Positions 29,453-63,147 are shown, counted from the first letter of the whole stretch. The stretch is DNA of 63,361 nt, filler included, from Octopus bimaculoides (GCF_001194135.2; 5 parts of 4 records of this genome joined end to end with filler, not necessarily neighbours in it), one strand, 5' to 3'. Translations and numbers: made by a program. Notes: generated from the letters alone by a model not told the origin.

Positions 29453-29506
29453 TACGTGGACAATTTTCTGTATTGGCATAATATACCTTAGCGTCTTCAG
29501 CACGCA
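29453..29506 (-). ncRNA. Type-I hammerhead-like motif, partly degenerate
   Basis: Minus strand reads TGCGTG-CTGAAGA-(25 nt)-GAAA-ATTG-TC|CACGTA: 6-bp stem I (one G.U), intact CUGAAGA, GAAA and GUC. Stem II pairs poorly at its base, and stem III looks like ACAATTGT missing 2 nt. Confidence 0.45.
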
Positions 29507-29624
29507 TTACCAGAAAGCGATTCCCAACCTATCCTTCCGAAATCTGTGCTGCTACTGATTCGTTTCGCGCCGAAATCACAGCAGCTTCTCAGTGTAAAAT
29601 AATCTCGTTGCCGAATTACGAGAA

Positions 29625-29866
29625 AAATTATTTAATAAAATTAATTTACAAAGGTACCGTTAATTCTATTATTATCCAATGTCATTAGTTTAAGAATGAT
29701 AATAACAGAATCAATGATACAGGCGACTTCAAGCCAAAAAATAGCATTTAAATAACCGAAGGATTAAAATTAATCGTTGATTCTGTTATTATCATTCTTA
29801 AACTAGTGACATTGGATAATAATAGAATTAACGGTACCTTTGTAAATTAATTTTATTAAATTATTT
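29625..29866. mobile_element. Near-perfect foldback (MITE-like or PLE-derived inverted repeat)
   Basis: 29630-29714 pairs with 29777-29861 at 84/85 around a 62-nt loop. AAATTATTT at 29625-29633 and 29858-29866 could be a 9-bp TSD. Confidence 0.9.
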
Positions 29867-30343
29867 ATGCGTGTGTGCATGCGTGTGTGTGCGTGCGTGC
29901 TGCGCTTGCGCACACGCATTCGGGTTATTCTTAACTAGCAAGTGACTGCAACTGAAGCTGTACTTTCAAGCTAAAACAGCTGCATCATGTAAGACCATCT
30001 TCATCAACTTAATAACGCATAAAGCTGTTAAATTTACTTAAATCTATTTCATAGTTTGCAGTGGAACTGTGTCAGTGTCGCAGTTTTGAGACGAAAATGT
30101 TTTGACGTGTCATGGAATACATTTAAATTTAAATTTACGATGCAGTGGTTTTAGTTTGAACGGACAATTTTTACTTCATTAAATGACCCCCCCCCCACAT
30201 ACACACAAAGACATGTATATTCACACATATATGCGTATATGTATACCTGCACACATACATATATATATTATATTTAAATGTAGGAGGTGATGCAGATGCG
30301 TAGGAAGGTTTAATATACGCCACCCGAGGTGCTGCCATTTATA

Positions 30344-30890
30344 TAGGCGCACACATGGTTGTGTGGTAAGAAGCTTGAATCCCAACCACATACTTCCAGG
30401 TTCAGTCCCACTACGTGGCACCTTGGACTTCTATTATAGCCTCGGTCCGATCAAAGTTTTGTGAGTGGATTTGTTGGACGAAAACTGAAAGTGGCCCGTC
30501 GTATATATGTATGTATATATCTCTGTGTGTGTTTATAGACGAGAGACAGATATTCTCCGTATAGAATACACTTTGTAGTGCTCAAGAAGTTTAAACTTGA
30601 GCAGGTAGAGGAGTAAATGTAAGGACAAGCAAGTTAGGCAAGTTGATATAAAAAAATCTACGGTGATCTATATGTGTGTTTTTGTGTCAGTATTTGTCTC
30701 CCACCACAGCTTGACAACCGGTTTTGGTGTATTTACGTCCCCGTAACTTAGCGGCTCGGTAAAAGATATCAATAAAATAAGTACCAGGCTTAAAAAATGT
30801 ACTGCGATTGATTCATTCAACTAAAATTTCTTTGAGGCGGTGTCCCAGCACGGCTGCAGTCTCATCACTGAAACAGGTAAAAGATAAAAG
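30344..30890 (+). mobile_element. Full-length bipartite SINE with a ~125-bp insertion in its internal microsatellite
   Basis: Head 30344-30510 and tail module 30675-30890, separated by (TA)/(TG) repeats plus unrelated sequence at about 30540-30665. Confidence 0.8.
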
Positions 30891-31366
30891 TTATTTTTAC
30901 TCCCTGGAGTGGAAAACATTTTTGACATTTAAAGTTATCACTGAGAATCAGTTTACTTTGAATCAATGAATAAGACGGAAACGGTCTTTCGAATAATAAA
31001 CAAGAATTAGATACCAAACCATGTAATATATACATATATGTGTGCACAGACACGAATGCACATGTGTACGCGTATGTTTGTACGTAGTTCATCATGTGAG
31101 TATACATACACATTCACTTACACACTTACCTAGATACACATACATGCATACATGCATAGATACATGCATACATACATACATACATGCGTACATACAAGTA
31201 TGCATATATATAATTATATATATATATATACATACACATACGCACATGCAGTATATATATATGCATATACGCCCACATTTATGTATGTATACACACACAC
31301 ACACACACATATATATGCACATATATATATGTATATATATATACATACATACATACATACATATAC

Positions 31367-31425
<59 letters not shown>

Positions 31426-31593
31426 NNNNNNNNNNNNNNNNNNNNNNNNNNNNNNNNNNNNNNNNNNNNNNNNNNNNNNNNNNNNNNNNNNNNNNNNNNN
31501 NNNNNNNNNNNNNNNNNNNNNNNNNNNNNNNNNNNNNNNNNNNNNNNNNNNNNNNNNNNNNNNNNNNNNNNNNNNNNNNNNNNNNNNNNNNNN

Positions 31594-31625
<32 letters not shown>

Positions 31626-32399
31626 TACATACTTTCTTGTACACATGCATTCACACATATAAACAGTTGATTACGGTAGGTCTTTGATATTTTTATTGAG
31701 ACGTCTCTTTCAAAAGGTGAATCAAATGGATTTTAATTAAGGTGAATAATAAGAATTAAGTGATCGGTTTGAAAGATTGCAGAGGACAATTATACTGGGA
31801 AGATGTCGTAAGAAATGAAATGGTATAAATGTTAGGAAATCAAAGTGTAAAATCACAAAGATACCAAATTCATCAACCGGAAATAATAAAAGTTCCTGGC
31901 TTTGAAGTTGAGTGTGTAAGAGGCAGAAAACTCTCCAAGATATTTAGTCAGACATCAAGAATTAGCGCCATCTTATTCTCTGTATTTGTTAATTATTCTT
32001 GTTAAAGCAACACCCCCTACCCACAACACACACGTCCTTTCGTAAAGAAAAACATAAGAGCTTTTAAACAGTTAAATGGAGTTTTCATGACATCCTAATC
32101 ATTTTTTTCATCCTCTCATTCTCCTCTGCTCCCTCCTCTTCCTCCTACTCCACCTCTTCCTCCTTCTCAACATCATCACCACAACTACGAACATTACTAC
32201 TATCACCATCGTGGTGGTCGTCATCATCATTATCACTATGACTACCATCACATCATCATCATTGTCTGTCAGTGTTGTCTTTTAATGAGGATTTCTAAAA
32301 CTACATTTTTCTTACGTTATTCCTCTTCTTAGCTTATGTTCTTTGCCTTTCCCTCTTATCCTCATAACTATTATTGTTGTTACCACCATTACATCGAGC

Positions 32400-32448
<49 letters not shown>

Positions 32449-32558
32449 CCTATGTGTGTATTATATTTATATCGTTTACTTGTTCTAGTCATTAAATCGC
32501 AGCCTTTCTGGAGCAACGCCTTGAGATGTATGCAGGTATATGCACATGTGTATATATA

Positions 32559-32780
32559 TGAGGGTGAGTCAAAAAGTAATACCATTTTGTTTAGGCCAGG
32601 TATAATTACCAATACAGGAACATGTATCATACATCAAAATGAAGCTGGTCCTCTGTGGATCACTTCCCTACTTCTCAACATAGTCAACGTTTCTCTCAAC
32701 AGCAATGTTCCACCTTCGAATGAGAGCATGTATCCCTGCCCCGTAAAATTCTGTTGACTGTTCTTTGAGCCACTTCTTCA
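32559..32780 (-). mobile_element. Mariner 3' end with one TIR
   Basis: TA|TGAGGGTGAGTCAAAAAGTAAT terminus. Minus strand encodes VKKWLKEQSTEFYGAGIHALIRRWNIAVERNVDYVEK*, a mariner C-terminus. Confidence 0.85.
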
Positions 32781-32839
32781 CTTAATAATCTTTGCCTCTC
32801 AAACCGTCTTTCATGGGGTCGAAGAGATGATAGTCCAGT

Positions 32840-33060
32840 AAAGAGGAAGCTCCATGAGGCTCCGGCAGGGGGTGGTGGCGACCCCTGTTGTACTCTTTTG
32901 CCCCAACTTTCTCTCACTCTTTCTTCTTGTTTCTTGAGTAAAGTTGCAATGGACTGGCGTCCCGTCCAGCTGTGGAGGGTGGGGGTGGAGCATATACGCC
33001 ATAGAATCCGGGAAACCGGGCCCATGAGCCTGGCTAGGCTTTAAAAGGGCGCATAAAAAG
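32840..33060. mobile_element. Two juxtaposed SINE fragments in opposite orientation
   Basis: 32840-32940 is the reverse complement of 50035-50125. 32940-33060 is a GGACTGGCGTCCCGTCCAG..CCCATGAGCCTGGCTAGGC tail related to 59000-59070. Confidence 0.65.
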
Positions 33061-33105
33061 ATAAATAATATGACACTATATATTATGTAAATTATATGGA
33101 AACAT

Positions 33106-33320
33106 TTCTAGTATTGGCACAAGATCAGCAATTTCGTGGGAGGGCGTAAGACGATTACATTGATTCCAGTTTTCAACTGGCAGTTATTTTATGGATCTCG
33201 AAAGGAGATGAAAGGCAAAATCGGCCTCGGAGGAATTTGAACTCAGAACATAAAGACGGACGCAATGCCGCTACGCATTCCGTCTGGCGTGCTAACGATT
33301 CTGCCAGTTCGCCGACTTAA
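33106..33320 (-). mobile_element. tRNA-derived SINE, same family as 17953-18185
   Basis: GATGAAAGGCAAA..GGAATTTGAACTCAGAAC..GCTAACGATTCTGCCAG.TCGCCG is the reverse complement of the head and core. Confidence 0.85.
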
Positions 33321-33650
33321 ACATTTGATATCATACTCTATTTCTCTCTTCGGAGATATTGATCGGTCTTTTAGTTCATAAGGCAGGTTTGAACTTACCC
33401 TGCCACGATATGGTAATCACTTCCAGCTACAATACCAGCTAATTGCTAGATAGCTATATACCGTAGAGCAATATTTGATTCGCCTAAGGCGGCGTGCCGG
33501 CAGATTTATTATCACGAATGCTTAGCGGCATTTCGTCGTTTTTATGGTCTAAGTTCACACACACACACGCACATACGCACCTGCGCGCGCGCGCACACAA
33601 TACACACAGACAGACAAACACGCACGGACTTCTGGAAGGTCATTACAGCA

Positions 33651-33795
33651 CAGAATAAAATAGAGGGTACCTCTGCTCAAAATAACAGATAGGGGTACCT
33701 CAGTACAGAGTAAAAGAGAGGGGTACCTTATTACAAAGTGAAAGATTGGGGTACTTCAGTACAAAATAAACGACAGACGCACCTCAGTGCAAAAC
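33651..33795. repeat. ~28-bp minisatellite, about 5 diverged units
   Basis: Units of the type CAAAATAAAAGATAGGGGTACCTCAGTA; three contain GGTACC. Confidence 0.85.
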
Positions 33796-33964
33796 TCAGT
33801 CAAATTGAGCCCATGAAGGATCCTCTACTCGGTCGCTCAGTCTGTTAAACTGTTAGAAATAGTAGTCAAATTTCATTCAGATTACATTATGCTGTTTTAA
33901 AAATAGAAGAATACATTAAAAAACGTAGTTTTAAATATACATAATATATTACCGAGCAAATAAA

Positions 33965-34125
33965 TTAGCAGCATTTCGTCTGTTTTCAAATTCCACCGCG
34001 GTCGACTTTGCCTTTCATCCCTTTCGGGGTCGATAAAATAAGCACCAGTTGAGCACTGGGATCGACGAAATCGGCTTACTTCCTCTCCCAAAATAGCTGA
34101 TCTCGTGCCAAAATTTGAAATTTGG
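33965..34125 (+). mobile_element. SINE fragment (core and tail)
   Basis: TTCAAATTCCACCGCGGTCGACTTTGCCTTTCATCC..GGGGTCGATAAAATAAG. Confidence 0.85.
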
Positions 34126-34169
34126 GACCAATGTAGAACGTTATATCACAACAGAAAGTAGTATTCAAT

Positions 34170-35330
34170 ACCATAATCTGCAACACTACACTACAATACC
34201 TAGTAATTCATTATAACATACCAACGACGCCACAATGCGTACCACTGTTATACCACAACACTCATTACTACATTAGAACACACTACACCATACTATATAA
34301 TTATTTACAACACTTTGCTGCAACACAACACTACATCACAACTTATAACACCATGCTACGTTACAGTATATAACACTACATCACGTCAAGCATCTGTATA
34401 ACAACACAATAAACTATATCTTAGAGCACCTCTCAACGCTTCAGTACATGGCAACACTCAACACTGTACCACAACATATACGACTATACTTCATCAAAAC
34501 ATACAACATTACATCAGTACAGACAACACACAGGACCAAACTATAGCACTAACTACAACGCTATACAGGCATCACATAATCTATATCATAACTCGTAACC
34601 CTCTAGTGCACCACAACTCACAATTCTATATAGTACAAAAATCTACATCACACTATACAACACTACTTTACAACACCCGAAATTATATAGCAACAAACAA
34701 GAATATCCCACATCACAAGATACAATACTACATGCCGACACCCAACGCTATGTTGTAGTGCAGTGACAAAACTATACTGTCACACAAAACACAGCGCTAC
34801 ATTACAACAGTGATATTATTATTCGCCACAACACACAACACTGTATCACACCATAGAATATTATTATACACTAGAACACACAACACTGTATCACAACACA
34901 CAATACTATATTACAAGACAACCTTGCAACACAACACATAACACTATATCACAAAACACGACATTATATCACAACTCACAGCACTGTATCAGAACACAAC
35001 CTTGCCCCACAACACACATTATATCACAACAGACAACAATATACCACGACACAATCTTACACCACAACACACATTATATCATAGCACGCAACACAACCTT
35101 ACACCACAACACACAATACTATATCACAACACAACCTTACATCACAACACACAACACTATATCACAACACAACCTTACATCACAACACACAACGTTATAT
35201 CACAACACACAGAACACACTGTACAAGACTACAGATCAAATCTCAATACTACATTCAACGCTCTTCGCTGCATCATAACGCACAGCATTATTTCTCATAA
35301 ATATGCACTCACCACAGCACTGCAATGATA
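34170..35330. repeat. Degenerate A/C-rich minisatellite of ~18-20-bp units (ACAACACACAACACTATATC-like)
   Basis: Units are clear at about 34820-35220 and increasingly scrambled leftward. Confidence 0.8.
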
Positions 35331-35377
35331 CCAACATCATCACCACCACTCACCATCACTATAACCCCCCCCCCCCT

Positions 35378-35459
<82 letters not shown>

Positions 35460-35505
35460 GCTGCTGCCACCATCACTATCATCGTCATGACCACTACCAC
35501 CACTA
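35378..35505. repeat. (TAC)n trinucleotide microsatellite
   Basis: Read directly. Confidence 0.95.
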
Positions 35506-36209
35506 ACTATGTTATTAAACTTTGTTCAGTTTTAATGAGTTTTTGTTTAGTTTTATGCATGGAAGTTCTCGACTTGAAAAAGAAGGAAAAAATAGATAAA
35601 AACAATGTCGGAATATGAAAAGCCGAAAATAAAAGAGTTGAAAGAGTTTGCCAATCTTTTAACCTCATTCTTCTGTTTATTACTGCATGTGATTTTGAAA
35701 CGAAATCTGAATTACTTTAATCTGTTTTCTTATTGTCTCTAGAATGTTCCATTAAACAACAAAAACAAAACAAAACAAAACAAAACAGACAAACAAACAA
35801 AAAACAAACAAGCACACAAAAGGAAGAAAAACAGTGTTTGCATATTCATATTATGAACGCAAAACAAAAACAATATGTAAATATAGACGTGGAAAAACCA
35901 AACGACACAAAACAAAACAACATTAGTGATGAATAATAAAAGAAAAAAATAGACATGAACATATCATAAATAAAATGTTACAAAGCTAAAATTAATAGTG
36001 TTTCAATTTAATAAGGGGTTTCAGATTTATAGGGACATGAGGATAAATGTCAGATCTTATATTTACAGTATATTTTATATGGAAAATAAACATCAAACCG
36101 AACGCGTTAGGGAGATGAAGCTGTTGCAACAGTGAACCATTCCTTAGTGGGGAACATGTTTTTTTTTTTCATTCTAAGATTTGAAAAAACAGCAAATGCA
36201 CTAGTAGTG

Positions 36210-36215
36210 ATGGTT

Positions 36216-36269
<54 letters not shown>

Positions 36270-36350
36270 ATAGTATTGGTGGTGGTGGTGGCGTTAGTAG
36301 TAATAGCGGAGTGAGGGTGGTAGTGGTGGAGGCAGTAGTAGTAGTAGTAT
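36210..36350. repeat. (GTA)n/(GTG)n trinucleotide microsatellite
   Basis: Read directly. Confidence 0.95.
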
Positions 36351-36384
36351 GTGACAGTTGAATGTCTTAAATGAAAATAGCTCT

Positions 36385-36530
36385 TTCTGATTTTGGTACA
36401 AGACCAGCAATTTTGTGGAGACAGAGGCAAGTTGATTTCAAGGACCTCAGTGCTTGACTAGTACTTATTTCATCGACCGCTTAAGGATGAACAATGCTGA
36501 CTTCCATGGAATTTAAACTGAAAACGTCGG
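36385..36530 (-). mobile_element. Diverged SINE fragment
   Basis: TTTTGGTACAAGACCAGCAATTTT tail and TTCATCGACC..GGATGAA core on the reverse strand. Confidence 0.6.
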
Positions 36531-36809
36531 AGGTGGCTGAACAAGGGTGACATAAAAAGAATACTGTAAGTCTAATCATCGCTACCCAGGAACTGGTTAG
36601 TCATACGGATTTTCTTTCCTTTATTCCCCTTTATCTTCTGTTTCTTTTATCTTCTGTTTCTTTTATCTTCTGTTTCTTTTATCTTCCATTTAATCTATTT
36701 TTAATTTTCTTTGTTTTTCTTTGTTTTTATCTTTTTATTTTTCTTTCCTTTTTCTTCTTTTCCTTCTTCCCCCTTTTATTTTATCACATGACATTGTAAA
36801 TGAACAATC

Positions 36810-37058
36810 TGGTGTGTTTATTTTAATGGACCTTTTGAGCATGATGGGCTACTCGACCTGAAGAGAATTCTATCTGGGCACCACCGGCAAGGTCATGTGC
36901 TGTTTATCTTGATATAAAATCACCAAGTCGCACACATCTGGTTGTGATGCATGTGCCTGGCGTACCCTTATCAGACGATTAGACATGATGTGTATACTGG
37001 GCTTTGTATATTTGTACCCCAGTGTCACTCTGATGGCATGCACTGCTCTCTCACTCAA

Positions 37059-37060
<2 letters not shown>
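36810..37060 (+). mobile_element. Probable 3' UTR of an R4/Dong-like LINE ending in a (TAC)n tract
   Basis: Non-coding segment ending ..GATGGCATGCACTGCTCTCTCACTCAATA directly into (TAC)n at 37060-37117. Family assignment is from recall of this repeat, with no ORF evidence. Confidence 0.45.
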
Positions 37061-37117
<57 letters not shown>

Positions 37118-37127
37118 ATAGTGATAA

Positions 37128-37225
37128 TCCTTTCTACTAAAGACACAAGGCTTGAAAGTTTTGAGGAGGGGAGTAGTCGATTACGTTGACCCAAGTGTTT
37201 CACTGGTACTTAATTTGTCGATCCC
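37128..37225 (-). mobile_element. SINE 3' fragment running into an N gap
   Basis: CTTTCTACTAAAGACACAAGGC..GTCGATTAC.TTGACCC..CTGGTACTTAATTT, as at 55461-55560. Confidence 0.75.
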
Positions 37226-48557: not shown

Positions 48558-49834
48558 CAGGGGTTGGACAAAATAATGGAAATACCTTGAAATTTCAAAC
48601 AAATTTAATTTAATATGGAGTAGGACCACCTCTGACAGTAATTACAGCTTGAATTCTACGAGGTATGGACTTGTACAAAGTTTGAATTGTTTCCGAAGGA
48701 ATTTTTGTCCATTCTTCAGCTAAAACAGTCTCCAGTTCTTGTGGTGATGATGGTGGAGGATATCGACTCCTTACTTGTTTTTCTGAAATGCACCATAAAT
48801 GTTCAATGATATTGAGATCTGGGGACTGTGGTGGCCACATAAGATGTTCAACTTCACTAGAATGTTCCTCGTGCCATTCAGTAACAATTTTAGCTGTGTG
48901 AATTGGTGAATTATCATCCTGAAAGATTGCGTTTCCCTCCAGAAACAGTTCCGCAACCATAGGATGAATGCTTAAATAGTCTTGACTATTAATTCTGCCA
49001 TGGAGGGGAACCATTGGGCTGGCGGATTTGCAAGGTATAGCCCCCCGCCTCCCCCAGATTATCACAGATCCTCCTCCATGTTTAACAGCTGGAAGAAGGC
49101 AGTCTGGGTCAAATGCTTCTTTTGACTGTCTCTACACGTATACTCGGCCGGTGGTTGGAAATAGGGTAAAGGATGACTCATCCGAGAAAATAACATTTTT
49201 CCACTGTTCTAGGGACCAATTCTGTGGGTTTTTACTCCACTCTAAACGCTTTACAACGTTTTTCTCTTTTTTTTTTCAAAGTAGCGGTTTTCTGATTGCA
49301 GCCCTCCCGTGAAATCCGGCTTTGTGCAGCTCCTGGCGAACAGCTTTTGTGGAAACTGGGTTCTCGAGGTGGTCGTTAAGCTCTGCAGTAATTTTGGGAG
49401 ATGTACTTTTGTGATCTTTTCTAACAATTTGCGTAAGAGTCTGACGGTCCCTGTCTGAAAGTTTTGGTTTTCTTCTAGAGTTTTGTTTCGACAAGGAGGC
49501 TTTTCCCTCTTTGTCAAAGGCTGTCATTACTTTCAAGACAGTACTTCTTGATACATCAAACATTTCAGCTGTTTTCATTACGCTAGCGCCTGCTATATGA
49601 GCACCAACAATTTAACCTTTTTGAAAGTCCGATAGATCTGTCATTTTAATGAATTTTAATTACCTTTTTCTGATGATCTCTGAAAAGAAACAGCTATTTT
49701 AACAAAATATATTAAGCAACACTAATAATAAATCAAAAAAACTTTAAAATAAACAGGCTTTTGACGGTTTTATAGATATTTCAAACTTATGATACTATGA
49801 TGCCAGGTGTTTCCATTATTTTGTCCAACCCCCG
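48558..49834 (-). mobile_element. Near full-length Tc1-type DNA transposon with DD36E triad (Incomer-like), ~30-bp TIRs
   Basis: TIRs CAGGGGTTGGACAAAATAATGGAAATACCT (48558-48587) and the reverse complement of 49805-49834 (28/30), with TA after 49834. The left flank is an N gap. Confidence 0.93.
48610..49644 (-). pseudogene. Tc1-type transposase pseudogene (stops and frameshifts)
   Basis: MTDLSDFQKG*IVGA..GRAAIRKPLL / FSDESSFTLF / HGGGSVIIWG / FQDDNSPIHTA..WPPQSPDLNIIEHLW..GGPTPY*. I count 36 residues between the second catalytic D and the E. Confidence 0.9.
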
Positions 49835-49847
49835 TATATATATATCG

Positions 49848-50208
49848 TCGTCGTCGTGGCACTCCGTCGGTTACTACGAAGAGGGTTCCAGTTGATCCGA
49901 TCAACGGAACAGACTGCTCGTGAAATTAACATACAAGTGGCTGAGCACTCCACAGACACGTATACCCTTCACGCATTTCTTGGGGAGATACAGCGTGACG
50001 TGACAAGGCTGGCCCCTTTGAAATACAGGTACAACAGAAACAGGAAGAAAGAGTGAAAGACAGTTATGGTGAAAGAGTACAGCAGGGTTCGCCACCAACC
50101 CCTGCCGGAGCTTCGTGGAGCTTTAGGTGTTTTCGCTCAATAAACACTCACAACGCCCGGTCTGGGAATCGAAACCATGATCCTAACCACTGGGCTATTG
50201 CGCATCCA
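49848..50208 (-). mobile_element. tRNA-derived SINE (head at right, tail at left)
   Basis: Minus head CAGTGGTTAGG..GGTTTCGATTCC; its tail is the reverse complement of 50640-50770. Confidence 0.85.
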
Positions 50209-50447: not shown

Positions 50448-50775
50448 GGAGGGGCGTGGCTCAGTGGTTAGGGTATTCGATTCACGATCGTAAGGTCGTG
50501 GGTTCAATTCCCGGCGACGCGTTGTGTCCTTGAGCAAGGCACTTTTATTTCACGTTGCTCCAGTTCACTCAGCTGGCAAAAATGAGTAGTACCTGTAATT
50601 GAAAGGGGCCAGACTTGTCACACTCTGTGTCATGTTGAATCTCCCCGGAGAACTACGTTAGGGACACACGTGTCCGTGGAGTGCTCAACCACTTGCACGT
50701 TAATTTCATTGGCAGGCTGTTCAGTTGATCGGATCAACTGGAACCCTCGTCGTCGTAACCGACGGAGTACCAGTT
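50448..50775 (+). mobile_element. Full-length tRNA-derived CORE-like SINE
   Basis: A-box TGGCTCAGTGG, B-box GGGTTCAATTCCC, CORE-like TGTGTCCTTGAGCAAGGCACTT, tail hairpin CAGTTGATC-G-GATCAACTG. Confidence 0.9.
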
Positions 50776-52837: not shown

Positions 52838-53009
52838 AGGCGCAGGAGTGGCTGTGTGGTAAGTAGCTTGCTTACCAACCACATGGTTCTGGGTTCAGTC
52901 CCACTGCGTGGCACCTTGGGCAAGTATCTTCTACTATAGCCTAGGGCCAACCAATGCCTTGTGAGTGGATTTGGTAGACGGAAACTGAAAGAAGCCCGTC
53001 GTATATATC

Positions 53010-53010
<1 letters not shown>
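52838..53010 (+). mobile_element. Well-preserved SINE 5' module ending in (TA)n
   Basis: TAGGCGCAGGAGTGGCTGTGTGGTAAG..GGGTTCAGTCCCACTGCGTGGCACCTTGGGCAAG..CGGAAACTGAAAGAAGCCCGTCG. Confidence 0.9.
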
Positions 53011-53044
<34 letters not shown>

Positions 53045-53284
53045 TATTATATATGTATATATATGCATGAGTGTGTGTGCGCGTGTGTTTGTGTTAAGTT
53101 ATAATAAAATTCTACCTGTCTTTAAACTGCAGCATTAATATATTTTTGTAGCGTAGCTATTTACAAGTAGGGTGACAATGACTTCAAATTTTCTATCTGT
53201 TAGCTTTCATCACACAGTCCAACGAAGACGTTTAGACTCAAACTTCAATTGTTAATAGCTAACACATACATAAATACATACACA

Positions 53285-54830: not shown

Positions 54831-54857
54831 TGTACGTAAATGTCGAAAGATGGAAAT

Positions 54858-55020
54858 GAGTGCTCAACGCCGCATTGGTAGATATAATTTCTTTATTTGC
54901 GAATTAAGGCTACCATTGGTTTCATGTTAAGAAATGTAGGAAAATATCCCAGTGTCTTAACGATTTTTTAAGCCGATCACATGGCGAAAGGTGTTCGCCT
55001 TCATTTTGGAAAACAGTCTC
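54858..55020 (-). mobile_element. Solo copy of the PLE pseudo-LTR segment
   Basis: GAGTGCTCAAC..CGCATTGGT.GATA..TTAAG.CTACCATTGGTTTCATGTTAAGAAA is collinear with 44334-44480. Confidence 0.8.
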
Positions 55021-55190: not shown

Positions 55191-55460
55191 CCCACTGTTG
55201 ATTGAAGGAGATCGCAGTACTTAACTGTTACTATGTATTACTGACGCCGAATTAATGAGAGGCAAATTTGACCTATACAGAAGTCGAACTCAGCAGGTAA
55301 AGGTCAGCATGAGACGCCAACAAATGATTCCTCGAATTGTCTACCACGTCAGGGTAGACTGATATTTGTGCGCAGGGCTGGTGAGTGGGTTGTAGGTATA
55401 TGTGTCTTTTTGGTGTGCCGCTTAACCAACACAAATGCGCTTACACACACGCATAAAATC

Positions 55461-55676
55461 CTTTTCTACTATAGGCACAAGGCCTGAAATTTGGCGGAAG
55501 GGGACTAGTCGATTACATTGACCCCATTGTTTCACTAGTACTTAATTTATCGACCCCGAAAGGATGGAAGGTAAAGTTGACCTCAGCGAAATCTGAACTC
55601 ACTACGTAGCGACGGGCGAAATACCACTGAGTATTTCGTCCAGGGCGCTAAAGATTCTGCCTACTCGCTGCCTTAT
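55461..55676 (-). mobile_element. Full-length tRNA-derived SINE forming the 3' part of a chimeric retrocopy
   Basis: Same family as 17953-18185. Shares the TSD CACACACG(CA)TAAAATC (55444-55460, 55720-55734) with the adjoining tRNA fragment. Confidence 0.88.
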
Positions 55677-55718
55677 TGGCTCCCAGGCAGGGAATCGAAC
55701 CCGGTCTCTTGCGTGACA
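55677..55718 (-). pseudogene. tRNA-Asp(GUC) 3' half retrocopy ending in CCA
   Basis: Minus strand TGTCAC-GCAAG-AGAC-CGGG-TTCGATT-CCCTG-CCTGGGA-G-CCA matches metazoan tRNA-Asp from U33 to G73, plus CCA. Confidence 0.8.
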
Positions 55719-55909
55719 TCACACACGTAAAATCAAATGGTTATATACGTACGTTCGCGCACACACAGATAACTTCGATTAGGCTATGAGCAACTTAAGC
55801 GTGAATTGGAGAGCGAAACGATACTTATGTAGAAATTCTGTAAAATTACAAAAATGGGAGAATATTCTCCACTGAATAGGTGCAGGCGTATCAGTGTGTG
55901 TAAATCGGC

Positions 55910-56100
55910 GTAGGCGTGGAACTGTGGTAAGAATCTTACTTCTCAACCACATAGTTCCGGGTTCAGTCCCGCTTCGGCAAAGGATTCAGTCCCGGTTTAA
56001 AAATAAATCATGGGATTCATTTGTTCAACTAAAATCCTTCAAATGAGTGCGTCAGCATGGCCGCATCAAAATGACTGAAACAAGTATAAGATAAAAGAGA
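55910..56100 (+). mobile_element. Internally deleted SINE (head fused to tail)
   Basis: Head to GGGTTCAGTCCCG, a second TTCAGTCCCG, then the tail CAGCATGGCCGC..ATGACTGAAACAAG..GATAAAAG. Confidence 0.75.
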
Positions 56101-57325
56101 AAGAGAAACGATGAAAGAATACAAAAGAATGATATGCATGAATGCGAATCTCCCCCACCCCCACTGGGCAACTACTCTGTTTCCTTCTCTACTACTCTAT
56201 ATACACCTTCCAGTAAGACCACCACGTACAGAAATTAAATTTCCTGAGAAATCCATTCCTTTCTAATTTTATGATATAATGTTCGTTTGTACAGGATGTG
56301 AGACTTTCATTTATTTTTAATATATCCATCGGTATTTGATTTCTCCATGTGAAATGCATTAGTATGCATTCATACATACATTAGATACATACATACATAC
56401 ATACAAACACATGCATTTCAGCATGTGTGTGTGTATACGTATTAAATACATAATTTTACATTACATTATATTTTATTGTAAACATACATGTAACAGAATG
56501 AGAGTGTCTGAAATTTTATCTCTCCGTACACGCACACACACACACACACATACACATTTAGCATCACGTGCATGCACTTTTGTTCTTTGGAGTGAATAGT
56601 TGCATGCGAAAACAAACTGTACGCATATGTGAAAGTATATTTGAATTTGTGCGTGATTAAGCATGTTTAACGATTTGTACATCTGCAAGTTTCTTTGAAA
56701 TTCGTGCCAATTTGAAAGAGAAATTAGGCGTGTTTATGATTTAGCCTGTAATTATAAATGAGTGCGTTATAATGTATAATCCGCAAATGAAAGTTATATG
56801 GTTTAAGCTTTTATCCAAGTCGAATTTGATGATAACACTATAACGTGATGAGTGGGGATTTTTGTTGATCTAACTACTTGGTCGAAAACCATTAGAGACC
56901 TGGTCCCCTCATCCCTCATGCCTCATGTTTGCTTATGTCTTTCCTCTGCATGTATTCGTGTGCATTAAACTTATTCACGTATGCGATGAAGCATGGTTTT
57001 CGTTGGCTTTATCGAGAAAGAGTCCTTGTGTATTTATACAAACGTGTATATGTAATCGTTTACGCGTGTACAGATATGTGTGTTTTTGTTTTCTTCTTTT
57101 TGGGGTTTTTTTTGTTCTTTTTTGCTTTTTACACCAGTATCGCGTGCCATTGTAATGGGAGCAAGTATTCATTTGCATTAGTTTTGATCTATGGAAGACA
57201 AAATACACAACAATATTTATGTTCAGATTTGCGTAGATTCCGTGGGAATTTATGTTTGTTATATATATGTGTTTGTGTGTTTGTGTTTAATGCCAGTTTA
57301 GTGTTCTGTGTTAAGAGCATGTATG

Positions 57326-57372
<47 letters not shown>

Positions 57373-57734
57373 GCATGTATGCATTATGTATCAATGTAAT
57401 ATTTTGTAAGTGAGATAATAACAGATGACAATATAATTATTTGTGTATCTGCATAATATGGATTGCGTTCTATTGCACAGCAGACATGTATGTATTTCCA
57501 TACCTTCCGTGTACGATAAAATATATAATTGTATTTATGCGTATATGGGCTTAAATGAGCGCGTGTACGTAAGAAGCGATTTCTGTGTGCTTATGTGTAT
57601 ATGTGTTTATTCTCACTTTCTTGTCTTCGTGTGTGTTGGGATTACGATTGAATTTGCATATATTAATGCTCTCTGTGAGATAAAATATGTAATATTATGC
57701 ATTTACAAATGTGTACTTGTGTGCAGTGTGTATG

Positions 57735-57812
57735 TGTATACGTCTGTTTTATCTACGTCTGTTTTGTGTATACGTCTGTTTTGTGTATGTGTATACGTCT
57801 GTTTTATCTACA
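57735..57812. repeat. ~17-bp tandem repeat (GTGTATACGTCTGTTTT-like), 4 units
   Basis: TACGTCTGTTTT occurs four times. Confidence 0.8.
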
Positions 57813-57961
57813 ATTTTTCTATAATTTTTTCAGTGTTGGAAGCATCTATCATTTCTCTATGTGCGGTAGGATATATATTTTTCTGCAATTGTACGTAAGT
57901 TTGCATATTTGTTTTAATGTATAATTGAATGCATAATTGTAATTTGTTAATCTGATATCAT

Positions 57962-57999
<38 letters not shown>

Positions 58000-58218
58000 C
58001 ATGTATGCATCCATGCATACATATTTATGTATAATGTCATATCATATCTTATATATTATATTATATTATATTATACTATACTATATTATATTTACGTATT
58101 TATTCATTGCTTTATTTAATAACAGCTTGGTTTTGACTTGATTTCGTTACATCCGTTTTAAGCTTCGTATATACACATAAATATTTGTATATATATACAC
58201 ATATATATATATATGTTT

Positions 58219-58250
<32 letters not shown>

Positions 58251-58448
58251 NNNNNNNNNNNNNNNNNNNNNNNNNNNNNNNNNNNNNNNNNNNNNNNNNN
58301 NNNNNNNNNNNNNNNNNNNNNNNNNNNNNNNNNNNNNNNNNNNNNNNNNNNNNNNNNNNNNNNNNNNNNNNNNNNNNNNNNNNNNNNNNNNNNNNNNNNN
58401 NTACATACAGTTAGGTCTAATATATACACATAAATATATATATATGTT

Positions 58449-58495
<47 letters not shown>

Positions 58496-58959
58496 GCATA
58501 CATACAGTTAGCTCTAATCAAATAGACCTGCTGTCTATGTGTGTGCATGCGCATGTATTTATTTATTCAATATTCAGTTAAATATTATCTAGTGATATTT
58601 GTATATTTGTATTTAATTGTGAACGAGCTAGAAGTATCCGTGTATTTAGGAATAAGTCCGTACTTGTTTGTCATTTATACGCTCACCACGGTCATGGTTA
58701 TCTACATTTTAAATTTAGCTACGTTCACAAATATGTGTAAGAAGGAAAATTAAGACGCTCGCCATTGTTTACTTCAATTTGTGTCGAACGAAAGTCTTTG
58801 GTATTTTTAAGAACTTGAAATATTGCAAATAAGTTGTCAAATCAGGTTTGTTTCACCAGGTATTTTTTATACTAAGGGAAACGATACCAGAAACAATATA
58901 ACATAACCATTTTAGATTTAAGGACATTAAGAAGTACAGCATAAGGATGGAATATGTGA

Positions 58960-59223
58960 ACATAAATGAAAAATATTTCCTTCTCGAGCAATGCCAGTTT
59001 CATGAGTGCCAGTTTCCTGGTTTAAATGGCGTATATACTCCCCCACTTGCATGGGACGCCAGTCCGTCGAAGGATTACTCATTTCTGCCAGCTGGGTGGA
59101 CTGGAGCAATGTGAAATGAAGTGTTTTACTCATGAACAGAACGCGTCGTCCGGTCCAGGCATCGAAATAACAATCTTACGATCATGATTTCAGAACCCTA
59201 ACCACTTAACCACGCACCTCCAC
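58960..59223 (-). mobile_element. tRNA-derived CORE-like SINE
   Basis: Minus head GTGGAGGTGCGTGGTTAAGTGGTTAGGG, core CACTTCATTTCACATTGCTCCAGTCCACCCAGCTGGCAGAAATGAGTA. Confidence 0.85.
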
Positions 59224-59362
59224 TATAAATGAACATGGTCGCCTATAAATATAGAACCATGTATCTGAAGAAAATCATTCGACCACGATAAATGTTACAC
59301 TAAAAAGCTTGTCAATAAAGAAGAAGCATATCATTCGTCCACGTTACGTTACTCTAAAACTT

Positions 59363-59477
59363 GCCAATAAAGAAAGCTAGCTCATCAGATCATCAGAACA
59401 TCATGGCTACACCAATGGTTCACTCTCAATTGTTGGCATAATCACGATATTCTGATGATCTAGTTTTCTTTATTTGC
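59363..59477 (-). other. Imperfect hairpin; inner 71 nt are pre-miRNA-like on the minus strand
   Basis: On the minus strand 59389-59415 and 59433-59459 form 26/27 pairs (5 G.U) around a 17-nt loop. An outer 18-bp stem matches at 16/18. Confidence 0.45.
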
Positions 59478-60612
59478 ATTTACTTGCATTGATTCCTAAT
59501 ATACATTAGTATTGCATAATGCACACAATACACAATAATACACACATGTAAGTATAATTCTATCTCATACTGAAACCATTACATGCAGAAGGCTACAAAC
59601 GGCCGGAATCCTAAGGGTGTCAAGTGGTTGATTATGTATATTCACCTCTCATGTTTTCTGACATTTTATAGCTTATGTACTCCTCGTGAATAATTTCATT
59701 AATCTGTCCTTCTGGATATCAGTTGCATGGACACTCCATGTTCTTTGTTAGCCGTGTCCGTTAGAGGGGCTTTCTGTGACAGCCACACAACTCCTTGAAT
59801 CTTTTACTGCAAATTTGTGTATCTGTTCTTGTGTTTATATGCATCTATGTATGTTTATATATCCCAGGTTTATTACGGATAGCTGTGAACCAGTGATAAT
59901 CAAAAGAAGTAGAACTTGTCAACGTCTGCATATTTTCCACATTGAACAAGTCCGTGAAAATACTGAAAACATGTCAGCAGATATGCTATTTTTCACAATT
60001 AAAAATATAAGATAAATATATAAATGTTATCATTCCACTATATCCGATTTATCCTTTAAGTGAGTGTTACTTTTCACGCAAATTCTTTTATTTTATGTCT
60101 ATTAAATGTTTTGCGTTGGGAAAATTATTTTCTTGCATGGCGACAAAAGAAAGGTAAAACATTCGGTGAAAAGTTTAACGTACACGTAAATGTGTTGTTA
60201 TATTTGTAAAGTGACTGGAGTTGCTATTCTGTTGCTGCTAATTCTTCGATGGTTTTATACTTCAATCAAAAACATAGTTTTTACGCCTACTTTTCACTTA
60301 GTCACATTACTTAATCATAAGTATCCTGCCTTTATTATTATATTTTTCGATTTATTATATTCTCTATTCAGTCTTACATACATTTTCCTATTTTCAGTTA
60401 GTTTTAATTCTTTTTATACATTTTAATTTCATACGAGTAATTCTTAGTCATTTCATTTGGTACTTCACTCACATACGCATACACACACACAAGCAAACAA
60501 ACATACACACACATGCACACAGACACTCACGCAAACTCATACGCACACATACAAACATATAGACACTCATATAGATGTATGCTTACATACGTGTATACAT
60601 ACATATATAGGC

Positions 60613-60645
<33 letters not shown>

Positions 60646-61098
60646 NNNNNNNNNNNNNNNNNNNNNNNNNNNNNNNNNNNNNNNNNNNNNNNNNNNNNNN
60701 NNNNNNNNNNNNNNNNNNNNNNNNNNNNNNNNNNNNNNNNNNNNNNNNNNNNNNNNNNNNNNNNNNNNNNNNNNNNNNNNNNNNNNNNNNNNNNNNNNNN
60801 NNNNNNNNNNNNNNNNNNNNNNNNNNNNNNNNNNNNNNNNNNNNNNNNNNNNNNNNNNNNNNNNNNNNNNNNNNNNNNNNNNNNNNNNNNNNNNNNNNNN
60901 NNNNNNNNNNNNNNNNNNNNNNNNNNNNNNNNNNNNNNNNNNNNNNNNNNNNNNNNNNNNNNNNNNNNNNNNNNNNNNNNNNNNNNNNNNNNNNNNNNNN
61001 NNNNNNNNNNNNNNNNNNNNNNNNNNNNNNNNNNNNNNNNNNNNNNNNNNNNNNNNNNNNNNNNNNNNNNNNNNNNNNNNNNNTATATAGATATAAAT

Positions 61099-61130
<32 letters not shown>

Positions 61131-61804
61131 ATACAGATATAAATACACATGTGTATACCTATATATACATAAATACAGATGCATATACATACGCACACAC
61201 ATATGTATGTGCGTATGTGTTGTTTCTGTGTGCGTGTGCAATTGTGTATTGACTTGCCTATGGGTTGTCTTATATTTGGTTGAATTTTGCTTTCAAATAT
61301 TTTTTTTATTGAAAATCAATTGAAAGGAATAATGAAGAATATGTGATTTTGCTTCATGTCTTTATATATTTAAATGCAGTTTTCTAGAAAAAATATCTCA
61401 TGATCATTGAGAGTTACGAGTAATACGTGCAGTTGAAATATAAAAAACAAAAGTGAACTTATAGAGAGCGCAAAACAAATGGAAACAAAAGACACATAAA
61501 AGAGATAAAGGAAATCACTAGGGACAATATATTCCTACAAAAATTTCTCATAGTTAGTTACATACTTTACCATGGTGATGTAAATGCTAACAGAAACATT
61601 TAACCAACTATTCACGCGCTCAAAAATCACGCATATAAGTGTGTGTACACATATGTGCATACGTGTGCGTAGTTTTAGAACAGTAAATATAGACTATATA
61701 TATATACATAAATACACACACACATAGCTAACATGCGTATATGTATGTGTATACGTGTATATACGTGTGTGTATGTATATATGTTTTCACATACCAACTC
61801 TCTC

Positions 61805-61869
<65 letters not shown>

Positions 61870-61879
61870 NNNNNNNNNN

Positions 61880-61956
<77 letters not shown>

Positions 61957-62373
61957 GTATGTGTTTGTATATGTAGGTATGCATATGATTATGTATATGT
62001 ACCTATAGTTTTCAAGATTTGTTTTAAGTTTTCCCCTATGCACAATTCCAGCCATTCACTAGCAAAAACACTCTTTTGTTTAATTTGACACACCTCGTTA
62101 GGTTATTGTTCACCTTTATCGGATTTTGTATTCGTATATGTGGTTCTCTTTTATGTATGAGCACATGCATGGACATAGCTACACACGTGTGTTTTTGTTA
62201 CAATAGTTGACAAATTTGCATGTTTCATTCTTATTTATGTGGTGTACGTGCGTATGTATTTCGCATGTATATGCAATATTATACATATATTCACACCGGA
62301 CCCTCAAATAGAGAATCCCTGTTAGGTTGTTTAAATTTTCACTCAATGTATATATATATGAGTGTGTGTCCGC

Positions 62374-62437
62374 GCGCGTGCGTGTGTGAGCGCGTGCGTG
62401 TGTGAGCGCGTGCGTGTGTGAGCGCGTGCGTGTGTGA
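62374..62437. repeat. (GCGCGTGCGTGTGTGA)4 16-bp tandem repeat
   Basis: Read directly. Confidence 0.95.
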
Positions 62438-62874
62438 GCGCGAGTGTGTGTGTAGATATACACAGAATGAATATAAACAGCAAGGTGCAATATTTCATAT
62501 ATACACATTCATACATACAGACACAGTACATAGTCACAAAAACCCGATACACAAACAGACACAGACAAGCACTCACAAGGAGAGAGAAGTACACACCCAC
62601 AAGCAAACACGCACACACATATAAAGACACATAAACACGAACACACAAACACAAACACATGAATATGCGGAATAGATACATACTAACTTACACATACACA
62701 TACATATATACATGCGCGCACACACACACTCATACATGCATACACACACTTACATGCATATATATATATATATATATATGCAAGAAGAAAATGGAGGAAA
62801 ATTAATGGGAAGAAGTTGGTCGTTTTCGTTAGTAACCCATTAATTTAATTAATTAAGCAAAGTGGTAGAAATAG

Positions 62875-62930
62875 TACATTTACTATCGTTTCTGTTTACC
62901 AGTTGTAGTGGTAGAAATCATCAGAATGCA
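62875..62930 (-). ncRNA. Near-intact type-I hammerhead ribozyme motif
   Basis: Minus strand reads TGCATT-CTGATGA-TTTC-TACCA-CTACAAC-TGGTA-AACA-GAAA-CGATAG-TA|AATGTA: 6-bp stem I (one G.U), exact core, 5-bp upper stem II, ACGAT(C>A)GT stem III and GUA site. Confidence 0.72.
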
Positions 62931-62945
62931 GTCGTATGTAGAGGT

Positions 62946-63147
62946 AGGAAGAGCGAAAGACATAGGGATACATTGGTAACGAGAATAAAGACAAAGAATG
63001 GTGAATCTTACATTATAGTAGATTTCACAGTTGATAATTCTGCTGCGAAGTGGATGTATCAACTAAGAAACCTACTATAATGTCAGACTCACCATAGTTT
63101 GCCTTTATTCTCGATACCAATGTATCCCTATGTCTTTCGCTCTTCCT
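62946..63147. mobile_element. ~200-bp foldback with 91-bp arms and 20-nt loop
   Basis: 62946-63036 pairs with 63057-63147 in one register, with 9 mismatches. Confidence 0.92.

What the first reader, a model, noticed from the sequence alone, without database searches (positions are those of the whole stretch)
29453..63147. Recurring hammerhead-ribozyme plus foldback units: candidate ultra-truncated Penelope-like insertions that leave long hairpins
Seen: five inverted-repeat structures with unrelated arm sequences each have a minimal type-I hammerhead motif beside or inside them: 29453-29506 with 29630-29861, 43211-43246 with 43341-43836, 45705-45744 with 44334-45702, 48047-48097 inside 48032-48122, and 62875-62930 with 62946-63147. 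In four, read on the ribozyme strand, the order is identical: inverted copy, spacer, original segment, then the hammerhead about 2, 15, 95 and 120 nt later. In one the spacer is a truncated PLE GIY-YIG ORF; in the others it is only a 10-62-nt loop. Established: PLE pseudo-LTRs carry minimal type-I hammerheads with palindromic stem III, and PLE copies often end in an inverted pseudo-LTR. Inference: the short foldbacks are the extreme 5'-truncated products of the same reaction, or a non-autonomous retrozyme-like class, and would be mis-annotated as DNA MITEs. They could supply much intronic dsRNA in a lineage known for heavy A-to-I editing. I do not know whether this class has been described.
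Basis: partly seen in the sequence, partly recalled or inferred. Interest (0 to 1): 0.85.

Follow-up and report, generated by a model that had tools for sequence, protein, structure and literature searches.

The report
Penelope retroelement stubs, some folded back
The hairpins and most of the hammerhead-like motifs are real, but they are likely ordinary cut-short tail ends of several very abundant Penelope-like jumping genes, some inserted with a mirror-image partner, not one new "hairpin followed by ribozyme" element.

Summary
All five foldbacks exist. Two hammerheads have the exact canonical core (sites 1, 5; 2 found, 0.02 expected), site 4 has a strong variant, and the motifs quoted for sites 2 and 3 are decayed. 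The claimed shared order (inverted copy, spacer, original, hammerhead) breaks down. Site 3 is a decayed Penelope-like element with inverted ends whose own hammerhead (U3-A8 type) lies inside both arms; the quoted motif is outside it. Site 4 is a true ultra-short foldback with the hammerhead in its loop. At site 2, reads show two separate repeat families meeting at a microsatellite, in the opposite polarity. At site 5 the outer arm is cut by a SINE. Site 1 stays open: its hairpin has a 9-10-bp direct repeat and may be an independent insertion. Predicted cleavage sites lie 77-101 nt before the 3' end in four places, as in the Anolis element (85-92). This is the known truncated-plus-inverted Penelope insertion pattern; this scan noted it before in other genomes. 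No editing or transcription of this locus was seen. Whether such stubs feed cephalopod hyper-editing is untested.

The parts
29290..29624 (-). Site 1: hammerhead-bearing fragment, likely a PLE 3' end; motif 29453-29506, exact core, 6-bp stem I, broken stem II; 165 nt from predicted cleavage site to a TA run
29634..29857 (.). Site 1 foldback: 85-bp arms (97.6%), 54-nt loop, 25% GC, no hammerhead inside; flanked by a 9-10-bp direct repeat (29625-29634 / 29858-29867) that may be a target-site duplication; link to the hammerhead fragment unresolved
43121..43319 (-). Site 2, family A: very abundant hammerhead-bearing 3' fragment ending at (TA)n; motif 43211-43246, decayed in this copy; 94 nt from predicted cleavage site to 3' end; about 46,000-49,000-fold the depth of unique bins at 43242
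43320..43340 (.). (AC)n microsatellite separating family A from the hairpin
43341..43836 (+). Site 2 foldback, unrelated to family A. Inner part 43517-43682 is family B (about 30,000-fold at 43643), whose original is the loop plus right arm on the plus strand; outer arms are low-copy (11-31-fold at three places). No intact hammerhead. Followed by (TATG)n
44309..44331 (-). Site 3 one-sided tail (at least 21-23 nt, possibly to 44298), shared with the copy at 54833; about 110-fold depth at 44319
44332..44532 (-). Site 3 inverted arm (inverted pseudo-LTR) with the element's own hammerhead-like motif at 44390-44442 (core U3-A8, 8-bp stem II)
44533..45093 (+). Decayed C-terminal part of a PLE ORF (end of RT region, linker, GIY-YIG-like endonuclease), with stops and frameshifts
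45505..45704 (+). Site 3 direct arm with hammerhead-like motif at 45595-45646; arm end about 2,400-2,700-fold depth against 24-161-fold in the body
45705..45744 (+).
47973..48047 (-). Site 4 inverted copy: the last 75 nt of family C, ending at (TA)n
48045..48122 (+). Site 4 direct copy, starting 7-9 nt upstream of the hammerhead core (48054-48090; G3-U8, 7-bp stem I, 5-bp stem II with a bulged base, palindromic stem III) and running into the N gap; about 18,000-fold mean depth
54833..55010 (-). Solitary truncated copy of the site 3 family with tail and no inverted partner; 77 nt from predicted cleavage site to microsatellite
62780..63056 (-). Site 5 direct copy: loop, arm 62946-63036, 15 nt, hammerhead 62875-62930 (exact core), then 101 nt to (TA)n
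63057..63147 (+). Site 5 inverted arm; symmetry stops where the SINE begins
63146..63361 (+). 5'-truncated SINE-like repeat (92% to 52855-53056) that cuts the site 5 arm and runs off the window

Best explanation
The window holds foldbacks and hammerhead-like motifs that are likely dead, heavily 5'-truncated 3' ends of at least four unrelated Penelope-like retrotransposon families, some inserted together with an inverted partner copy. Mechanism (inferred from published PLE work, not shown here): the element's GIY-YIG endonuclease cuts AT-rich or microsatellite DNA, reverse transcription starts inside the RNA about 80-100 nt downstream of the hammerhead, usually stops after 100-200 nt, and a second short cDNA (or a snap-back copy) is joined head to head at a palindrome or microhomology. 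Both arms therefore end at the element's 3' end, one with a short tail, and the hammerhead falls inside the arms (site 3) or in the loop (site 4). The mirror half is made anew at each insertion. Cases with a hammerhead beside a hairpin arise secondarily: two families sharing a microsatellite target (site 2), insertion next to an older fragment (site 3 motif), or a SINE cutting the outer arm (site 5). Site 1 is unresolved.
For: Site 3 spacer matches unnamed full-length RT-endonuclease proteins (tblastn E 3e-22 with P0002; 4 hits of 60 candidates). Its arms carry a U3-A8 hammerhead-like motif in both orientations, a variant described in PLEs (PMC4209133). One-sided tail shared by 2 of 3 arm copies, as in PMC8557442 and PMC3846280. 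Depth rises from 24-161-fold in the body to about 2,500-fold in the last 100 nt: extreme 5' truncation. A same-strand joint 44414 to 45622 lies on the symmetry axis (1 and 2 contigs in two DNA runs): another copy is a short foldback. Site 4: reads pass from 48122 onto the minus strand at 48031 (104 and 102 RNA reads; related joints in both DNA runs), so the left flank is the inverted 3' end of the same family; 144 contigs continue upstream of 48045; other junctions (48001-48051, 48048-48045) show differently placed fold points. Cleavage-site-to-end distances 94, 91 (inferred across the gap), 101 and 77 nt against 85-92 nt in the Anolis element (PMC11167929). Site 2: depth falls from 46,000-49,000-fold to 11-31-fold across the (AC)n; 403 and 327 contigs continue family B upstream of the loop on the plus strand; 299 and 271 end in microsatellite at 43517. 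Site 5: arm symmetry ends within 2 nt of the SINE start.
Against: Only the site 3 family is tied to a PLE ORF; families A, B, C and those at sites 1 and 5 are called PLE from hammerhead, spacing and target only, and family B has no intact hammerhead. Sites 1 and 5 were not covered by the single read-laying run. Site 1 does not fit the canonical form (direct copy would run about 335 nt past the arm; 165 nt from cleavage site to end). Both exact-core hammerheads lie within 150 nt 3' of a foldback; under uniform placement that has a chance of about 2 in 10,000. No clear target-site duplication at sites 2, 4, 5. Rfam recognises none of the motifs. Pfam named no RT or GIY-YIG family in the query or its 4 relatives. 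Contig depth is only a rough measure of abundance, and most joints were not shown (315 hidden).
Confidence: 0.75

Rival explanations
1. One reading: a distinct PLE insertion type in which only the 5'-most segment of the cDNA is copied in inverted form, so that a hairpin precedes the hammerhead on one strand.
For: Sites 1 and 5 have exact-core hammerheads 118-120 and 15 nt 3' of a foldback with no microsatellite between; chance under uniform placement about 2e-4.
Against: Fails at sites 2, 3 and 4. At site 5 the arm ends at a SINE. At site 1 the hairpin differs in GC (0.25 against 0.42) and has its own flanking direct repeat. Two adjacencies in this same window were shown or judged to be coincidental, so uniform placement is the wrong null.
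Confidence: 0.12
2. Some hairpins (site 1, perhaps the outer arms of site 2) are independent DNA-type foldback elements (Mutator/Foldback-like MITEs) that landed beside PLE fragments because both favour AT-rich and microsatellite DNA. This completes rather than replaces the best explanation; the confidence given is for site 1 alone.
For: Site 1: perfectly symmetric ends, 97.6% arm identity, 9-10-bp flanking direct repeat, no tail, no hammerhead inside. 9-bp duplications are typical of Mutator elements (recalled). Tc1-like and other terminal-repeat elements occur in the window.
Against: The direct repeat is near-palindromic and AT-only, so it can also be read as the arm tips with one mismatch. 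PLE insertions also have 8-10-bp duplications (PMC3846280). No second copy and no transposase link was found. For site 2 the inner arms are not terminal repeats in other copies.
Confidence: 0.45
3. A non-autonomous, retrozyme-like class of fixed foldback units that is transcribed and re-mobilised as a whole.
For: The outer arm of the site 2 hairpin is a low-copy repeat (21-31-fold at 43425-43428), which could be a small family of whole hairpins.
Against: Fold points differ among copies of families C and site 3. No tandem hammerhead units at any site; retrozymes are tandem 150-450-bp units with canonical type I ribozymes (PMC7229834; preprint 10.64898/2026.07.22.740005). The five arm sequences are unrelated.
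Confidence: 0.08
4. Assembly artefacts or chance palindromes with chance motifs.
For: The window has 8,721 N; site 4 ends at a gap; the relaxed hammerhead scan is not enriched.
Against: Arms differ by 2-15% with indels; contigs from two independent DNA runs match 43882-44411, 44435-44721 and 45660-46782 without a difference; strict motifs exceed all 300 shuffles.
Confidence: 0.03

Closest known systems
Insertions of endonuclease-bearing Penelope-like elements (Penelope/Poseidon, Neptune, Nematis): 5'-truncated copy with adjacent inverted 5'-truncated copy and one-sided 30-40-bp tail (Craig et al. 2021, PMC8557442; Arkhipova et al. 2013, PMC3846280)
   Same: Inverted partner at the 5' end, one-sided tail, hammerhead within the terminal repeat, strong 5' truncation, microsatellite targets without clear duplications, palindrome or microhomology at the fold point.
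   Different: Several copies here are only 100-250 nt; families are undescribed in my searches; tail seen at site 3 is confirmed for only 21-23 nt; site 1 does not fit.
Minimal type I hammerheads of metazoan PLEs (Cervera and de la Pena 2014, PMC4209133)
   Same: Long stem II, short stem I, bulged base before stem II, palindromic stem III, U3-A8 core variant, mostly solitary motifs; pairs 100-700 bp apart on opposite strands were already reported in Schistosoma.
   Different: Site 4 has G3 with U8 in this copy; the majority reading of family A has U at position 6 (or needs a U3-G8 wobble with a poor stem II). Neither variant appears in the two parts of that paper I read. No cleavage tested.
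PAc (Poseidon of Anolis), Frangieh et al. 2024, PMC11167929
   Same: Hammerhead cut 85-92 nt upstream of the reverse-transcription start; here 77-101 nt in four places. No reads beginning or ending at the cut site in either case.
   Different: All copies here are defective; site 1 spacing is 165 nt.
Non-LTR retrozymes (Cervera and de la Pena 2020, PMC7229834; Li, Clavereau and Pollet 2026 preprint)
   Same: Short, non-coding, hammerhead-bearing, PLE-related.
   Different: Retrozymes are head-to-tail tandem units; these are single or head-to-head copies with variable fold points.
MITEs / Mutator- and Foldback-like DNA elements (family features recalled)
   Same: Short hairpin with long inverted arms; site 1 has a 9-10-bp flanking direct repeat.
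   Different: At sites 2-4 the arms are not fixed terminal repeats in other copies, and sites 3-4 carry hammerheads and a tail or ORF remnant.

Membership tests
EN+ Penelope-like element (site 3) | ORF with telomerase-like RT and C-terminal GIY-YIG endonuclease | tested here: met
   Decayed C-terminal part matches 697-aa RT-endonuclease proteins, E 3e-22; Atlas neighbour cluster named GIY-YIG, 0.92, PF01541 on 21% of members. RT and YIG motifs in the relatives were read by eye; Pfam named none. The RT core itself is absent (5'-truncated).
EN+ Penelope-like element (site 3) | Inverted pseudo-LTR with one-sided tail | tested here: met
   200-bp arms; 21-23-nt extension on the left arm shared with copy 54833.
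EN+ Penelope-like element (site 3) | Minimal hammerhead inside the pseudo-LTR | tested here: met
   44390-44442 (-) and 45595-45646 (+), U3-A8 type, stem II kept in 3 of 3 copies; not an Rfam match.
Neptune/Nematis clade (site 3) | Cys-rich linker between RT and endonuclease; phylogenetic placement | tested here: inconclusive
   Relatives P0002 and P0004 have a Cys-rich linker; the window keeps a frameshifted remnant. No tree with named references was built.
EN+ Penelope-like element (sites 1, 2A, 4, 5) | Link to a PLE ORF upstream | not testable with these tools
   No genome held; collection scans gave 0 hits; loose ends give only 30 letters.
EN+ Penelope-like element (sites 2A, 4, 5) | Hammerhead about 85-130 nt upstream of a 3' end at AT-rich or (TA)n DNA | tested here: met
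   94, 91 (inferred) and 101 nt, each ending at (TA)n. Site 1 gives 165 nt.
EN+ Penelope-like element (site 4) | Inverted copy of the element's own 3' end at the 5' truncation point | tested here: met
   Opposite-strand joints 48031/48122 and upstream loose ends at 48045.
   Fails at sites 2, 3, 4; explained by a SINE at site 5; open at site 1.
Non-LTR retrozyme | Head-to-tail tandem units each with a type I hammerhead | tested here: not met
   No direct repeats of the hammerhead units in self-BLAST or motif scans.
Non-LTR retrozyme | Expression as small circular RNA | not testable with these tools
   Only standard unstranded RNA-seq was laid.
MITE (site 1 hairpin) | Terminal inverted repeats with fixed-length target-site duplication | tested here: inconclusive
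   Symmetric ends and one 9-10-bp direct repeat; one copy only.
MITE (site 2 hairpin) | Arms are the termini of the family in other copies | tested here: not met
   403 and 327 contigs continue family B beyond the loop; 299 and 271 end at 43517 in microsatellite. Outer arms not resolved.
Active hammerhead ribozyme | Self-cleavage at UH | not testable with these tools
   No pile-up of read ends at any predicted site in two RNA runs (table 6); such libraries are weak evidence.

The most novel reading that the evidence does not exclude
Ultra-short PLE foldback stubs from families present at ten- to fifty-thousand-fold abundance are a main source of the unusually high fraction of long, near-perfect dsRNA in octopus-like genomes, and so of their hyper-editing, while being filed as MITEs or unknown repeats; and the most amplified family does so with a non-canonical hammerhead core, with site 1 marking a further insertion type in which only the 5'-most segment is inverted.
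Probability: 0.2. Interest if true: 0.6.

Novelty: new member of a known kind. Interest (0 to 1): 0.3.

Why it matters
As a system it is known: truncated-plus-inverted PLE insertions with minimal hammerheads. The practical value is annotation (short foldbacks here can be retroelement debris, not MITEs) and a testable lead: octopus has an exceptionally high fraction of loci able to form long dsRNA (4.4e-3) and the strongest hyper-editing signal among the species compared, but its repeats were left out of that repeat analysis, while Penelope was heavily edited in the lizard (PMC5625713). If PLE foldbacks supply that dsRNA, they would explain part of it. The core variants (U3-A8, G3-U8, U6 majority) are cheap to test and bear on whether PLE hammerheads need to cut.

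Tried and rejected
No whole genome is held, so genome-wide enrichment, polarity and distance tests could not be run. An exact 21-nt motif of family A found 0 loci in viral, metagenome and prokaryote-genome collections. Rfam: no hammerhead or twister family at any site; hairpins only draw sub-threshold microRNA models. Relaxed motif scan: not enriched over shuffles. Single-strand folding does not give the hammerhead fold for sites 1, 2, 3, 5 (z -0.9 to 0), as expected for dimer-type motifs, so it is no test. Pfam: nothing for the 86-aa fragment or its relatives at the curated level; first protein search with the 86-aa piece found nothing. Five short window motifs were absent from the supplementary zip of PMC8557442, which holds Naiad consensus sequences (one strand each, line breaks can hide a match), so no Naiad assignment for family B. 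No RNA holder was listed by the run search; that is no evidence. In the two RNA runs laid (about 6% of each read), 6 of 6 single-copy bins had zero depth, libraries were unstranded, and A>G places (35, 37) did not exceed those in DNA contigs (49, 48); nearly all reads came from other copies (68 of 12,168 and 38 of 11,126 at 99% or more), so editing of these hairpins was neither seen nor properly testable. Opposite-strand joints at 44412-44433/45622-45630, 43553/43632 and 48023/48122 were rejected as foldback evidence: they fit loop-length or small-indel variants of ordinary copies. A possible hammerhead remnant at 45337-45390 and one at 29535-29610 were dropped (no GAAA or no stem I). Earlier-finding look-ups by place and by sequence returned nothing. 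Literature searches for short PLE hairpins mis-filed as MITEs or PLE hammerheads in cephalopods gave no paper on these families; the library lacks most subscription papers and Repbase/Dfam entries were not visible.

Full report
Setting. The window is a gapped animal assembly (8,721 N) rich in microsatellites and SINE-like repeats. It looks like an octopus genome; that is my recall of the repeat landscape, not a tool result (runs are coded as organism A). No whole genome is held, so evidence from other copies comes from one read-laying run on 43121-48122, which covers sites 2, 3 and 4 but not 1 and 5 (two DNA contig sets X1, X5, read whole; two RNA runs X21, X22, about 6% read; 82% likeness).

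Observation. All five inverted repeats are real. After masking microsatellites, the long short-loop foldbacks in the window are those at sites 1, 2 and 5, plus site 3 with its 972-nt spacer; other long inverted pairs are oppositely oriented dispersed repeats. A strict hammerhead search (CUGANGA, GAAA, UH, stem I of 6 bp or more) finds 2 motifs, sites 1 and 5, against a mean of 0.02 in 300 local shuffles, 0 of 300 reaching 2. Allowing any paired 3-8 combination gives 4 against 0.34 and adds site 4 and an unexplained motif at 56592. A relaxed scored scan is not enriched overall (score 8 or more: 5 against 2.96, maximum 7 in 25 shuffles); its top hits are site 4 (12.5), 44390-44442 minus (8.5), and 45595-45646 plus, 56592 and site 5 (8.0 each). 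Rfam lists no hammerhead at any site.

Site 3. The spacer holds a frameshifted plus-strand ORF remnant that matches unnamed RT-endonuclease proteins (4 hits of 60 candidates; tblastn E 3e-22). Arms are 200 bp at 84.5%. A third copy of the arm lies at 54833-55010. The family's own hammerhead-like motif is inside both arms: U3-A8 core in the left arm, long stem II kept in 3 of 3 copies, near-palindromic stem III. Depth relative to unique bins is about 2,400-2,700-fold at 44388 and 45648, 109-118-fold in the tail at 44319 and 24-161-fold in the body (24-fold from the lowest body bin, 1,470 over 60), so most copies are only the last 100 nt. One same-strand joint, 44414 to 45622, sits exactly on the symmetry axis in both DNA runs (1 and 2 contigs): another locus is a short foldback of this family with its centre in stem II.

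Site 4. The hammerhead has a 7-bp stem I, G3-U8 core, one bulged base, 5-bp stem II and palindromic stem III (fold z -3.1). Reads pass from 48122 onto the minus strand at 48031 (104 and 102 reads in the RNA runs), and related joints occur in both DNA runs, so 47973-48047 is the inverted last 75 nt of the same family and the direct copy very likely continues through the gap. 144 contigs in X1 continue upstream of 48045, so this copy is truncated 7-9 nt before the core. Junctions at 48001-48051 (12 letters between) and 48048-48045 (30 letters between) are foldbacks with other fold points whichever strand is meant (table 5c; one contig each by depth). Mean depth is about 18,000-fold. This is a true ultra-short PLE-type foldback, but with the ribozyme in the loop.

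Site 2. The hammerhead piece 43121-43319 (family A) reaches 46,000-49,000-fold at 43242; past the (AC)n the outer arm is 21-31-fold; the inner hairpin is another family (B) at about 30,000-fold. Loose ends show that B continues upstream of the loop on the plus strand (403 and 327 contigs) and normally ends at the 43517-equivalent in microsatellite (299 and 271). The hairpin itself may be a PLE-type inversion of a family B copy with about 160 nt of 3' extension; B has no intact hammerhead and its class is not established. The majority letters for family A (G at 43242 in 98% of depth; loose-end consensus behind 43226 and 43240) give a motif with C3-G8, bulge, 4-bp stems and palindromic stem III but U at position 6; the alternative parse needs a U3-G8 wobble and a broken stem II.

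Site 5. Exact core, 6-bp stem I, 101 nt to (TA)n. Arms 62946-63036 and 63057-63147. Symmetry stops within 2 nt of the start of a 5'-truncated SINE-like repeat whose other three copies extend further upstream. The simplest reading is a canonical inverted insertion whose outer arm, with the inverted hammerhead, was cut by the SINE and lies beyond the window. Inferred, about 70%.

Site 1. Exact core and 6-bp stem I but no basal stem II; 165 nt to a TA run. The hairpin is 97.6% identical, 25% GC against 42% next door, symmetric to the base and flanked by a 9-10-bp direct repeat; beyond its outer arm lies a (TGCG)n-type repeat and no continuation of the inverted copy.

Mechanism. Shown: sequence anatomy, abundance profile, family boundaries at sites 2-4. 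Taken from papers: PLE insertions are 5'-truncated, often with an adjacent inverted truncated copy and a 30-40-bp tail at either end, hammerheads within the pseudo-LTR, microsatellite targets (PMC8557442: passages, section 6 and supplement searches); palindromes at the inverted junction and 8-10-bp duplications (PMC3846280: passages); cleavage of both strands of AT-rich DNA, two internal reverse-transcription starts at +111-118 with the hammerhead cut at +26, hammerhead not needed for insertion in vitro (PMC11167929: parts 1-2 of 4); minimal hammerheads mostly solitary, pairs 100-700 bp apart on opposite strands, U3-A8 variant, bulged base (PMC4209133: parts 1-2 of 4). Inferred: that these families used the same route. 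The spacing agrees: 94, 91, 101 and 77 nt here, 85-92 nt in the Anolis element; site 1 is the outlier.

RNA. Six of six single-copy bins have no RNA reads in either run; reads on the repeats come from other copies; no A>G excess; no read-end pile-up at hammerheads. The locus shows no sign of transcription in these samples, so the intronic dsRNA idea has no support here and remains untested elsewhere. PMC5625713 (passages and section 8) reports the high dsRNA potential and hyper-editing of octopus without repeat annotation, and heavy editing of Penelope in lizard. Other papers seen: PMC13282606 (passages; lists Penelope-like and MITE families in O. vulgaris, no mention of hammerhead; supplements not opened), PMC8969392 (passages), PMC6962438 (passages; 235 Rfam hammerheads in giant squid), PMC7229834 (passages), preprint 10.64898/2026.07.22.740005 (part 1 of 5 and passages; supplements closed), preprint 10.1101/2020.01.19.911685 (passages). 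Repeat libraries in supplements or databases that I could not see may already name these families.

Earlier findings. This scan recorded the same pattern in other genomes (palindromic mini-insertions in a shark, truncation just upstream of the hammerhead, hairpin stubs). These are unchecked notes; my conclusions rest.

Verdict. Real features, partly mis-assembled into one story. Known kind of insertion, new families. Interest 0.3.

Noticed in passing
window 43211-43246 (family majority): The most abundant hammerhead family (about 46,000-49,000-fold) appears to have U at core position 6 in its majority reading, or else a poor stem II; either way a non-canonical core in a hugely amplified family.
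   Followed up: partly
window 48054-48060: Site 4 core has G at position 3 with U at position 8 (a swapped 3-8 pair); the family majority at position 8 was not among the rows shown.
   Followed up: partly
window 17119-18300 (+): A second, older decayed PLE ORF (N-terminal and RT parts) matching P0002/P0004 in several pieces (E 0.002-0.07); a 30-bp inverted pair at 16225-16254 / 16888-16917 lies upstream.
   Followed up: partly
window 48558-49832: Tc1/mariner-like element with 28-bp terminal inverted repeats and broken transposase frames on the minus strand (family name from motifs read by eye), directly behind the site 4 gap.
   Followed up: no
window 56592-56639 (+): Motif with G3-U8 core, GAAA, UH and 6-bp stem I but only a 2-bp stem II, with no foldback nearby; may be chance.
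   Followed up: no
window 43430-43475 (-) and 43715-43750 (+): Outer arms of the site 2 hairpin hold a core-like heptamer and a 6-bp hairpin enclosed by a stem, but no GAAA or UH: possibly a deleted hammerhead remnant.
   Followed up: partly
window 43231-43288 (RNA runs X21, X22): A 56-nt skip with 2 letters between is common in RNA (461 and 272 reads) but rare in DNA contigs (one contig in X1, none in X5): one or a few expressed family A copies dominate the RNA.
   Followed up: no
window 62863-62873 and 62911-62921: An 11-nt word occurs twice, once in stem II of the site 5 hammerhead and once just downstream of it.
   Followed up: no
window 10966-11402 / 13835-14242, 49857-50035 / 50586-50772, 33104-33247 / 33979-34121: Inverted pairs of dispersed repeats 0.5-2.4 kb apart (79-81%); a rival source of dsRNA in this genome that needs no PLE.
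   Followed up: no
window 11721-12044 (-) and 38160-39862: Decayed non-LTR retrotransposon frames (RTE-like and R2/R4-like by motifs read by eye).
   Followed up: no
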